From: the human T2T-CHM13v2.0 reference genome, Homo sapiens
Reading direction: 5' to 3'
Assembly (NCBI GenBank): GCA_009914755.4
Contig: CP068257.2
Location: 33,760,001-33,824,000, forward strand
Length of the DNA stretch: 64,000 nucleotides
The position numbers are program-made. Numbering within the stretch: position 1 is the first letter of the stretch; each line of letters begins with the position of its first letter. Of the stretch, positions 39,401-42,400 are shown piece after piece.

Positions 39401-42400
39401 GGAAAGAGAATACATCCATGCATATACTTATGAGCAACATGTTCTTTAAAATTCCACCCAATTTTTGTGTTTGTAAAGTGACATTCCAATCGTGTCAGTC
39501 CTTCACACTTGCACTGTATACTTAATCTCTTTTGATTCTTTCCTATAGACCATCACTTCACCCTGGACTGCCCAGGCATCATCCACTGAATATCCCCCGA
39601 GGCCAGGTTAAACATTGGTTCAGGACATTCTATTCCCTACATCCCTCACTCAGTCGTCCTGCTTTCACTGTTCTATAGGCTACCACATGTATCAGCTCTA
39701 TTCCCCTTCTGATCCTAATCACCCCTGGGATCAAATCTGAGCTATCATCACAACCTCCACGTTTCACCTATTAGAGAAATGATCCTCAGGTAGAAGGGCT
39801 TGTTATCCTTCCAGACGTCTCTGTGATTCTCAACCTGCCTGGTCACCTTTCCTGTTTGTTCCTTCTTTTTTATCAAAACATCTTTATATGTTACAGAGAG
39901 ATATTACACACAGCATTTTGTTTCAGCACAGCAATTTGTTCATTTGATCGCATCTAACTGAAGTATCTGTCAAGGATGAGATAAACGTGGTTTCACAATG
40001 GGGACTATCACCCAACCTGGCAGTCTCACCTCTCAACTGCCTTCTGGGCCTGCCTAGATAAAAGCTGTTGTTCTGTGCTGTAAAATAACAAAATAACGTT
40101 GGTGTGTTTTTCCTCCCCACCAAATAGCCCACAGCCATTCTCCTAAAATTGATGACGTTTTCTTTTTTTGACACCTTCTTTAACTGGTTCAGTTACAAGC
40201 TTATCTGATTTTGATATCAATGTCTCAATTCCAGCTTAATCCTTAAATAAGTAATGAATGAAGCAATGACTCAAATGGCATCACCCCGTTTTATGGACCT
40301 GAGCATGTTTCACACAGTGCGCCCGCTGCTCAACCTCATGGGCACTGAGTTTTCTGTGTTGTAGTGAACAAGTTTTCAGCTAAAACTAATCAAGGAAAGA
40401 TCAACAGGCTGCCCTACAAGAATATAAACTACAAGGAAATTTTATGATGTGTGCATACACTTGTTATCTAAATACTTGTTTAAAAAATAATAGAAGGTTC
40501 ATCAAGTCTCAACATCTTACTGAATCAATAAAAATTCAAAATGCCTGTGTTTTATGAGTGACCAGGAGTGACCTTTCCCCACCTCTCTACCCAAGGCTCC
40601 AGGGTAATTTGAAAATGACAGCTCTGGATACAGTAGTGGTTCTCCAGGTGTAGTCCCTGGACAAACAGCATCACCCAGGAACTTGTTAGAAAAGCAAGTT
40701 CTTCCTTCCACACGTCCACGTGTTCTCGTCATTTAGCTCCCACTTACAAGTGAGAACATTCGGTATTTGATTTTTCTGTTCCTGCATTAGTTTGCTAAGG
40801 ATAATGACTTCCAGCTCTATCTATGTCCCTATGAAGAACATAATCTCATTCTTCATGGCTGCATAGTATTCCATGGTGTGTATGTATCACATTTTCTTTA
40901 TCCAGTCTATCACCGATGGACACTTAGGTCAATTCCATGTCTTTTCTATTGTTACTAGTGCTGCAATGAACATACATGTGCTTGTGTCTTTATAATAGAA
41001 TTATTTATATTCCTTTGAGTATATACCCAATAATGGGATTGCTGGGGCCTATTGGACAGTAGAGGGTGGGAACAGGGAGAGGACCAGGGAGAATAACTAA
41101 TAGATATTAAGCTTAATACATGGGTGATGAAATAATCTATACAACAGATCGCATGACACACGTTTACCTATGTAACGAACTTGCACATGTACCTCTGAAC
41201 TTAAAAGTTAAAAAAAAAAAAAGAAAAACAAGTACTCAGGCCCCACCCCTGACCTACTGAATTAAAAAAGTCTATTATGAGGCCCAACAATGTTTTAACA
41301 AGCCCTCCTCCAAGAGCTACATCATTGTCCAGGTGCTGGAGATCTCAAGGCTGATACTAGCTTCACGAATTCTTTGACCAAGTGAAATCAAATAGGAAAA
41401 GAGAATATACATAAGTTTTCTAAAGTTTTTCTTAAGCCTAAACTATGTGTTTAACTATCCAATTAAAGTTGAATATTCATTATTTTTCCTGTTTTTTGAA
41501 GTTATTATGGAGAACATTTGCTGCATTCTTTATTTGGCTGGAGATGCTTATAGTAACCAAGGCTGAGTTATGGTGCTTGCCTGAGGTGCAAATTCAAAGG
41601 CGCAAAACTCATAAATCAAGATGAATATTAATGCAATATTTAAAAAGTCAACACTAATCCAAACAATTATGATGAACAAAATAACAAAATTATAAATGGA
41701 GATTAGGCCAGCCCGGAACTTTTATGACTAACCCTCTTACATCACTCTAATCCTGGCCTTGTTAGTGATAACCTCATACTATCATCAATACATTGTGATA
41801 ACCTTGGAAGAGGAGTGTATCAGTTGTGTCTCATATATGCTCATTTTTTCCTGAGTGTTTTGCCAATGGCATGGTCATAGATGGCAGCGTATAATGGGAG
41901 CAGAGAGGACTGGGGACCAGCTAAGTGGAGCACAGGCAAAGTAATGTTCCAGAAGCCTGGGGAAGGTGCCATCCGGGGGGACCTAAGCCAGGATTTGAGG
42001 TAGACGTGGGAGAGTAGAAACAAGTGGGAGACTGGAAACAGCTGGGAGTGATGGACATAACTATTTGCCAAATGCCATGATGGGACAGCGATTAAAACAA
42101 GTAAAAAGTCATGGTTAAGTTCACACAAATAACAGGAGACAGAAAAAGCCTGTGAGCCATAAAATTAGGCAAAGCTGAAAGGAGGGAGTTGGCCTTGAGA
42201 CCAGGAAAGAAAGTGGGCCTGCACTAGAAGAGACAGTCCCAGAAGGTAGCATGACATATATAAAAAGTCAAGATGCCAGGCATAGTGGCTCATGCCTGTA
42301 ATTCCAGCACTTTGGGAGTCCGAGGTGGGAGGATCGCTTGAGGACCGGAGTTCAAGATCAGCCTGGGCAACATAGCAAGATCTTGTTTCTACTTAAAAAA

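What the first reader, a model, noticed from the sequence alone, without database searches (positions are those of the whole stretch)
40688..41233. Textbook twin-primed (5'-inverted) L1 insertion with intact TSDs
An antisense L1 segment (40700-41047, reverse complement of the ORF2-3'/3'UTR region) abuts a sense L1 3'UTR terminus with poly(A) (41048-41221). In L1 coordinates the two pieces are contiguous and non-overlapping. The inverted piece ends about where the direct piece begins. The whole ~520-bp unit is flanked by the 12-bp duplication 'agaaaagcaagt'/'agaaaaacaagt'. This topology is TSD, inverted upstream part, direct 3' part, poly(A), TSD. It is the signature of twin priming during target-primed reverse transcription, not of two independent insertions.
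Basis: partly seen in the sequence, partly recalled or inferred. Interest (0 to 1): 0.5.

Follow-up and report, generated by a model that had tools for sequence, protein, structure and literature searches.

The report
Ordinary twin-primed (5'-inverted) L1 insertion

Summary
The observation and the interpretation both hold. Window 40700-41046, read on the minus strand, encodes the last 104 residues of L1 ORF2p (PDB ORF2p residues 1172-1274, E 3e-42). The ORF2 stop and 33 nt of 3'UTR follow. Window 41042/41047-41209 is sense L1 3'UTR, followed by A12-13.

I built a 605-nt consensus from 27 uninterrupted L1 3' ends found as host DNA in metagenome contigs. On it the inverted block covers positions 35-384(386) and the direct block starts at 392(397). 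Only 5-12 nt of L1 are missing between them.

- **Topology:** the high-coordinate end of the inverted block touches the left duplication, as twin priming predicts.
- **Target-site duplication:** one 12-bp pair (11/12 identical, P about 0.001 with slack) flanks the whole unit. Neither block has a pair of its own.
- **No poly(T):** the inverted block has none.
- **Microhomology:** CTGGG (5 nt) at the inversion junction and GT (2 nt) at the internal priming site.
- **Nick site:** 5'-TTCT/AA, one mismatch from TTTT/AA.
- **Age:** both blocks are of the same old 3'UTR type and similarly diverged (10% and 14.5%, p = 0.18).

This is an already known, common structure with no sign of function. Interest is low.

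The parts
40688..40699 (.). Left (5') target-site duplication, AGAAAAGCAAGT. Its last two bases, GT (40698-40699), also match L1 consensus positions 385-386, so they could have base-paired at the internal priming site.
   Evidence: family D3; the alignment runs 2 nt into the duplication; chance estimate.
40700..40732 (-). Inverted L1 block, part 1: the first 33 nt of the L1 3'UTR, antisense on the + strand. This is the start of the internally primed cDNA.
   Evidence: aligns to consensus about 352-384, directly after the ORF2 stop.
40733..41046 (-). Inverted L1 block, part 2: the 3' end of ORF2 (ORF2p residues about 1172-1275 plus the TAA stop at 40733-40735). It is decayed, with 3 in-frame stops and one 1-bp insertion.
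   Evidence: frames; PDB ORF2p 1172-1274, E 2.8e-42; consensus 35-351.
41042..41046 (.). Inversion junction. CTGGG aligns to L1 both as antisense (consensus 35-39) and as sense (consensus 392-396), giving 5 nt of microhomology between the two cDNA ends.
   Evidence: (both local alignments include these bases).
41047..41209 (+). Direct L1 block: sense 3'UTR from consensus about 397 to the 3' terminus. This is the poly(A)-primed cDNA.
   Evidence: 85.5% identity to the consensus of uninterrupted L1 3' ends.
41210..41221 (+). Poly(A) tail, 12 A. A 13th A at 41222 is shared with the duplication.
   Evidence: read directly.
41222..41233 (.). Right (3') target-site duplication, AGAAAAACAAGT. It has one mismatch to the left copy, at position 7.
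   Evidence: (family D3).
40682..40693 (-). Inferred first-strand nick site of the L1 endonuclease. The top strand reads CTTGTT|AGAAAA, so the bottom strand reads 5'-TTTTCT/AACAAG-3'. That is TTCT/AA, one mismatch from the TTTT/AA preference.
   Evidence: read directly. Consensus motif as given in PMC2837659 and PMC12016303.

Best explanation
This is a single ancient L1 retrotransposition event resolved by twin priming.

1. The L1 endonuclease nicked the bottom strand at 5'-TTCT/AA, between window 40687 and 40688.
2. The poly(A) of an L1 RNA annealed there. Reverse transcription from that 3'-OH made the non-inverted cDNA, now 41047-41221.
3. Before it got further than about 180 nt, the top strand was cut 12 nt downstream.
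4. The freed top-strand 3' end (...CAAGT-3') paired with an internal site of the same RNA just after the ORF2 stop, with 2 nt of complementarity.
5. This primed a second cDNA running towards the 5' end of the RNA for about 350 nt, now 40700-41046, antisense.
6. The two cDNA ends were joined at a 5-nt microhomology (CTGGG), losing 5-12 nt of L1.
7. Gap filling created the 12-bp target-site duplication.

The element is non-coding debris: a truncated, inverted ORF2 tail with stops and a frameshift. It has decayed by about 10-15% since insertion.

Shown: the sequence topology, the L1 coordinates, the duplication, the microhomologies and the absence of a second tail. Inferred: the order of biochemical steps, and that one RNA molecule served as template for both cDNAs.
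For: - **L1 identity.** ORF2p residues 1172-1274 on the minus strand. Sense 3'UTR plus poly(A).
- **Adjacent coordinates.** On uninterrupted L1 copies in the same window (columns 389 versus 399-401). On a consensus of 27 uninterrupted copies: inverted 35-384/386, direct 392/397 to the end.
- **Orientation of the inverted block.** High coordinate at the duplication, low coordinate at the internal junction.
- **Duplication.** A single outer 11/12 pair, P about 0.001. No other direct repeat pairs either block on its own.
- **No stray L1 sequence.** There is no poly(T) left of 40700 and no further L1 sequence within 6 kb.
- **Subfamily concordance.** The inverted block carries the ORF2 end ...AGTGGGAGCTAAATGA..., as found in copies that have the same old-type 3'UTR as the direct block. 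The two young-type copies in the window do not carry it.
- **Divergence.** 10.2% and 14.5%, Fisher p = 0.18. The 4.3-point difference lies within the -4.9 to +8.0 spread of single-insert reference copies.
[quoted passage not shown] 18-22% of L1 insertions are 5'-inverted, and 46% of those have cDNA ends within 20 bp of each other (PMC12016303).
Against: - There is no direct evidence of the pre-insertion site. No orthologue or paralogue of the flanks could be found with the available collections.
- The nick site TTCT/A is one mismatch from the consensus. It is not among the three motifs (TTTT/A, TTTT/G, TTTC/A) counted as canonical in PMC12016303.
- The direct block is nominally more diverged than the inverted one (14.5% versus 10.2%), though not significantly.
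- The microhomologies are judged against a consensus, not the unknown source element.
- The consensus is empirical and mixes subfamilies and possibly host species.
Confidence: 0.9

Rival explanations
1. Two independent L1 insertions that happen to abut: an antisense L1 fragment, and a later or earlier sense L1 3' end landing exactly next to it.
For: Nested and adjacent L1 fragments are common in primate DNA. The window holds three other L1 3' fragments. The two blocks differ nominally in divergence, 10.2% versus 14.5%.
Against: - The antisense block lacks the last about 190 nt of L1 and any poly(T). Ordinary target-primed insertion does not give this, because it starts at the poly(A).
- Neither block has its own duplication, and the only duplication pair spans both.
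- The blocks map to adjacent L1 coordinates with a 5-12 nt gap, and the missing-end coordinate of one equals the start of the other. That would be a coincidence among about 6000 possible positions.
- The divergence difference is not significant (p = 0.18).
Confidence: 0.03
2. An ordinary 5'-truncated sense L1 insertion of about 540 bp whose 5' 350 bp were later inverted in place by a two-break repair event.
For: It would give the same final order of sequences, a small loss at a breakpoint and microhomology at a repaired junction.
Against: - It requires one break to fall exactly at the boundary between the L1 and the duplication (40699/40700) and leave the 12-bp duplication intact.
- There are no inverted repeats that could drive such an inversion. 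The best in the region is 22 nt at 73% (pair I1).
- 5' inversion arising during insertion is frequent, at 18-22% of insertions.
Confidence: 0.03
3. A two-template event: the top-strand primer annealed internally to a second L1 RNA molecule of the same subfamily rather than to the RNA being copied from its poly(A). This is a trans variant of twin priming, related to the 'dual priming' idea of PMC2837659.
For: The sequence alone cannot tell one RNA molecule from two of the same subfamily. Dual priming has been proposed in the literature. There is a slight nominal divergence difference.
Against: The internal priming site (consensus about 384-386) lies within 5-12 nt of the point where the first cDNA ends (392-397). 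This is expected if both reverse transcriptions ran on one RNA and met, and is unexplained for two independent RNAs. Dual priming as proposed starts at the second RNA's poly(A) and would leave a poly(T), which is absent.
Confidence: 0.04

Closest known systems
Twin-primed (5'-inverted) L1 insertions, Ostertag & Kazazian 2001 (cited as ref. 14 in PMC12016303; model summarised in PMC2837659)
   Same: It shares the order duplication, inverted upstream L1 fragment, direct 3' fragment, poly(A), duplication. The L1 coordinates are adjacent with a short internal deletion, there is microhomology at the junctions, and the nick site is endonuclease-like. The fragment sizes (about 347 and about 175 nt) are close to the medians reported for somatic events (292 and 253 bp).
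   Different: Nothing is different in kind. It is an old, decayed copy of an older L1 type rather than a recent L1HS event, and its nick site has one mismatch to TTTT/A.
Ordinary 5'-truncated L1 insertions, for example the two in this window at 31895-32460 and 33961-34324 (minus strand)
   Same: They share the same 3' end of L1, a poly(A), a 13-16-bp target-site duplication and an A-rich target.
   Different: Those copies are collinear with L1 throughout. Here the upstream 347 nt are inverted.
Poly(T)-headed L1 insertions (twin-priming variants / dual priming, PMC2837659)
   Same: They also have an antisense L1 fragment inside the duplications that was made from the top-strand primer.
   Different: Those have a non-inverted part confined to the poly(A), which gives a 5' poly(T). 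Here the non-inverted part holds about 165 nt of 3'UTR and there is no poly(T).

Membership tests
L1 (LINE-1) retrotransposon fragment | Sequence homologous to L1 ORF2 and the L1 3'UTR, ending in poly(A). | tested here: met
   ORF2p residues 1172-1274, E 2.8e-42. 89.8% and 85.5% identity to a consensus of 27 L1 3' ends. A12-13 at 41210-41222.
Twin-primed (5'-inverted) L1 insertion | Two fragments of the same L1 in opposite orientation. The inverted one is the upstream part in L1 coordinates and lies on the side away from the poly(A). | tested here: met
   Consensus 35-384 on the minus strand at 41046-40700. Consensus 392/397 to the end on the plus strand at 41042/41047-41209.
Twin-primed (5'-inverted) L1 insertion | The highest L1 coordinate of the inverted fragment abuts the 5' target-site duplication, and its lowest coordinate abuts the start of the direct fragment. 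| tested here: met
   Consensus 384-386 is at window 40700-40698, next to the duplication. Consensus 35 is at 41046, next to the direct block.
Twin-primed (5'-inverted) L1 insertion | The start of the inverted cDNA and the end of the direct cDNA map close together on L1, with a small deletion or duplication. | tested here: met
   5-12 nt of L1 are missing (consensus 387-391 at least, 385-396 at most). About 9 nt are missing on the in-window copies. 46% of reported cases lie within 20 bp.
Twin-primed (5'-inverted) L1 insertion | One target-site duplication pair flanks the composite, and there is no separate pair for either block. | tested here: met
   Family D3 matches at 11/12. No other direct repeat pairs the block ends. 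P about 0.001.
Twin-primed (5'-inverted) L1 insertion | There is a single poly(A) at the 3' end, and the inverted fragment has no poly(T) or L1 3' terminus of its own. | tested here: met
   The inverted block stops 33 nt into the 3'UTR and directly meets the duplication. There is no other L1 piece within 6 kb.
Twin-primed (5'-inverted) L1 insertion | L1 endonuclease-type first-strand nick site (5'-TTTT/A-3'). | tested here: inconclusive
   The bottom strand reads 5'-TTTTCT/AACAAG, that is TTCT/AA, with one mismatch. It is not one of the three motifs scored as canonical in PMC12016303, where only 63-70% of L1 insertions meet that criterion.
Twin-primed (5'-inverted) L1 insertion | Short complementarity between the top-strand primer and the L1 RNA, and microhomology at the inversion junction. 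| tested here: met
   GT of the duplication matches consensus 385-386. CTGGG at 41042-41046 aligns in both orientations. Both are judged against a consensus, not the source copy.
Twin-primed (5'-inverted) L1 insertion | Both fragments derive from one source element and are of the same age. | tested here: inconclusive
   They share the same old-type ORF2 end and 3'UTR combination. Divergence is 10.2% versus 14.5%, p = 0.18, within the spread of the reference copies. Curated subfamily models were not available.
Twin-primed (5'-inverted) L1 insertion | An empty orthologous or pre-insertion site with a single copy of the 12-mer. | not testable with these tools
   No primate genome collection is available. 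No paralogue of the flanks was found in the window or in 120 loci. A pattern spanning the reconstructed empty site found nothing in genome contigs.

The most novel reading that the evidence does not exclude
The two cDNAs were templated by two different L1 RNA molecules (trans internal priming) rather than by one RNA. Alternatively, the event is lineage-specific enough to serve as a clean phylogenetic marker. Neither reading is excluded by the sequence, but nothing points to either.
Probability: 0.04. Interest if true: 0.2.

Novelty: already known. Interest (0 to 1): 0.08.

Why it matters
It matters little beyond correct annotation. The two adjacent, oppositely oriented L1 hits at this locus should be counted as one insertion event, not two. 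The locus is a clean worked example of twin priming, with a 12-bp duplication, a 5-12-nt internal deletion and 5-nt junction microhomology. About one in five L1 insertions has this form (PMC12016303), so it answers no open question.

Tried and rejected
- **Raw minus-strand translation against the PDB.** This failed because of stop codons. It was solved by repairing the frame.
- **Pfam scan of the ORF2 tail.** No family matched. This is uninformative, because no Pfam model matched this C-terminal stretch.
- **Independent evidence for the pre-insertion site, by three routes.**
  - BLAST of the reconstructed empty site against the rest of the window and 120 fetched loci gave no paralogue.
  - An exact-pattern scan of genome contigs for TTGTTAGAAA-N6-10-CTCAGGCCCCAC gave no hit.
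  - I tested whether the rejoined flanks form a palindromic older repeat. The DNA fold z-score was 0.10, so they do not. From memory, the flanks resemble an old mammalian interspersed repeat that would be collinear across the site. That stays an untested lead.
- **Original twin-priming paper.** PMC311219 is not held in the library. The model is cited through PMC2837659 and PMC12016303.
- **Rivals considered and rejected.** These were two independent insertions, post-insertion inversion and dual priming (see the rival explanations).

Full report
**What is there**

The window is primate-like DNA. It has nine Alu-type 5' ends, one SRP/Alu-type Rfam hit and several L1 fragments. The region 40688-41233 reads, left to right, as follows:
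- AGAAAAGCAAGT
- 347 nt that are L1 on the minus strand
- about 165 nt that are L1 on the plus strand
- A12-13
- AGAAAAACAAGT

**Identity of the inverted block**

The reverse complement of 40700-41047 has an ORF2-like frame with three stops and one 1-bp insertion. The repaired translation matches residues 1172-1274 of the 1275-residue human L1 ORF2 protein in the PDB (8uw3, 8sxt, 9k6g; E 2.8e-42). The ORF2 stop (TAA) lies at 40733-40735 on the minus strand. The block therefore continues 33 nt into the 3'UTR before it meets the left 12-mer at 40699/40700. Pfam gave no match for this tail.

**Reference for L1 coordinates**

No curated repeat library was available, so I used two empirical references.

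The first is two uninterrupted L1 3' ends in the same window, at 31895-32460 and 33961-34324 on the minus strand. Each has its own poly(A) and target-site duplication. In a MAFFT alignment, the inverted block (as sense) ends at column 389. The L1 homology of the direct block starts at columns 399-401, so about 9 nt are missing. These two copies have a younger type of 3'UTR that differs in the middle from the one in the finding.

The second came from scanning metagenome contigs for a 24-nt motif of the direct block. This returned 120 host-derived contigs. Of the 71 with enough flanking sequence, I aligned 27 uninterrupted ORF2-end-to-poly(A) copies and took the majority consensus, which is 605 nt.

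On this consensus:
- the inverted block aligns to 35-384 (window 41046-40700);
- the alignment runs two further bases (385-386) into the last two bases of the left 12-mer;
- the direct block aligns from 392 (window 41042) to the terminus and poly(A).

The bases CTGGG at 41042-41046 belong to both alignments. The L1 sequence missing between the blocks is therefore 5 nt at least (387-391) and 12 nt at most (385-396).

**Topology**

The inverted block has its highest L1 coordinate next to the left duplication and its lowest next to the start of the direct block. This is the arrangement expected when the top-strand 3' end primes internally on the L1 RNA and reverse transcription proceeds towards the RNA's 5' end. 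Meanwhile the bottom-strand primer copies from the poly(A) (model as summarised in PMC2837659).

**Flanks**

- The 12-mers match at 11 of 12 positions (family D3).
- In 20000 random placements of two anchors 522 bp apart in this window, allowing +-6 bp of slack on each side, 22 reached 11/12 or better. That gives P about 0.001.
- No other direct repeat pairs the ends of either block alone.
- There is no poly(T) to the left of 40700.
- There is no other L1 3'-end sequence within 6 kb.
- The inferred first-strand nick is 5'-TTTTCT/AACAAG-3' on the bottom strand. This is TTCT/AA, one mismatch from the TTTT/AA preference.

**Same event?**

The inverted block has the ORF2 end ...AAGTGGGAGCTAAATGA.... 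This is the form seen in the consensus of copies selected only for carrying the old-type 3'UTR of the direct block. It is not the form of the two younger copies in the window.

Identity to the consensus is 89.8% (298/332) for the inverted block and 85.5% (141/165) for the direct block. Fisher's test gives p = 0.18. The same two regions in the 27 single-insert references differ by -4.9 to +8.0 points, with mean -0.4 and sd 2.7. The two blocks are therefore compatible with one age. The reference copies themselves are 86-92% identical to the consensus, so this is an old insertion. I did not convert divergence to an age, because the consensus mixes subfamilies.

**Mechanism**

Twin priming during target-primed reverse transcription is the best explanation (confidence 0.9).

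What the sequence shows:
- the topology and the L1 coordinates;
- the single duplication pair and the single tail;
- 2 nt of possible primer-RNA pairing (GT/AC);
- 5 nt of microhomology at the inversion junction.

What is inferred:
- the order of the biochemical steps;
- the use of one RNA molecule as template for both cDNAs.

The three rivals each get 0.03-0.04.
- Two independent insertions do not explain the 3'-truncated, tail-less antisense block, the shared duplication or the matching coordinates.
- Inversion after insertion needs a break exactly at the boundary between the L1 and the duplication, and there are no driving inverted repeats.
- Priming on two RNAs does not explain why the internal priming site lies within 5-12 nt of the end of the first cDNA.

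**Comparison with what is known**

This is the classical structure. 5' inversions occur in 18.4% of germline and 21.9% of somatic human L1 insertions. In 46% of inverted insertions the two cDNA ends lie within 20 bp of each other on L1 (PMC12016303). Among the 120 contigs fetched only as reference material, two (L041 at 5001-5524 and L079 at 556-904) show the same inverted/direct arrangement.

**Limits**

- No orthologous or paralogous empty site could be obtained.
- No curated subfamily name or standard L1 numbering could be assigned.
- The consensus numbering used here is local.

**Verdict**

The structure is already known, and interest is low.

Noticed in passing
window 31879-32477 (minus strand): An ordinary 5'-truncated L1 3' end (about 31895-32460) with a younger-type 3'UTR. 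It has a short A-rich tail and a 16-bp target-site duplication, AAGATTGCTGCCTTGA, at 32477-32462 and 31894-31879.
   Followed up: partly
window 33948-34337 (minus strand): A second ordinary 5'-truncated L1 3' end (about 33961-34324), close to the young L1PA-type sequence as I recall it. It has a poly(A) and a 13-bp duplication, AGAAACAAAGATA, at 34337-34325 and 33960-33948.
   Followed up: partly
window 3171-3500 (plus strand): A sense L1 fragment covering the ORF2 end and part of the 3'UTR (consensus 186-539, 77% identity). Its ends and flanks were not examined.
   Followed up: no
window 5136, 8549, 16363, 20188, 24246, 34923, 36386, 47689, 63900; and 16100-16247: Nine matches (3 mismatches or fewer, none expected by chance) to the Alu 5'-end motif, which I supplied from memory. 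There is also one Rfam Metazoa_SRP hit exactly at the gathering score, at 16100-16247 on the minus strand, most likely part of an Alu. These indicate primate DNA.
   Followed up: partly
window about 34440-34590: A G+C-rich stretch with several CpGs (gcgcaggtggcatcgccc...gtgcggcggcgccattcttcccacggcgggtggagg, read on the minus strand) lies immediately beside L1 copy B. It could be a CpG-rich promoter or exon fragment, or another repeat.
   Followed up: no
window about 32590-32640; 42798-42900; 33671-33877: Simple repeats: a (GT)n/(GC)n run next to L1 copy A, an (AGAC)n array of about 20 copies, and an AT-rich degenerate tandem region.
   Followed up: no
L041:5001-5524 and L079:556-904: Two of the metagenome-derived host contigs fetched as L1 references carry their own 5'-inverted L1s with the same topology. 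In L041 the inverted block is consensus 226->18 and the direct block is 258-578. In L079 the inverted block is 150->14 and the direct block is 360-576. This illustrates how common the structure is.
   Followed up: partly
window 40620-40699 + 41234-41330: From memory only, the flanks of the insertion resemble an old mammalian interspersed repeat (...CAGCATCACC.GGGAACTTGTTAGAAATGCAAATTCTCAGGCCCCACCCC...) that would be collinear across the site once the L1 is removed. No paralogue was found in the available data, and there is no significant hairpin.
   Followed up: partly
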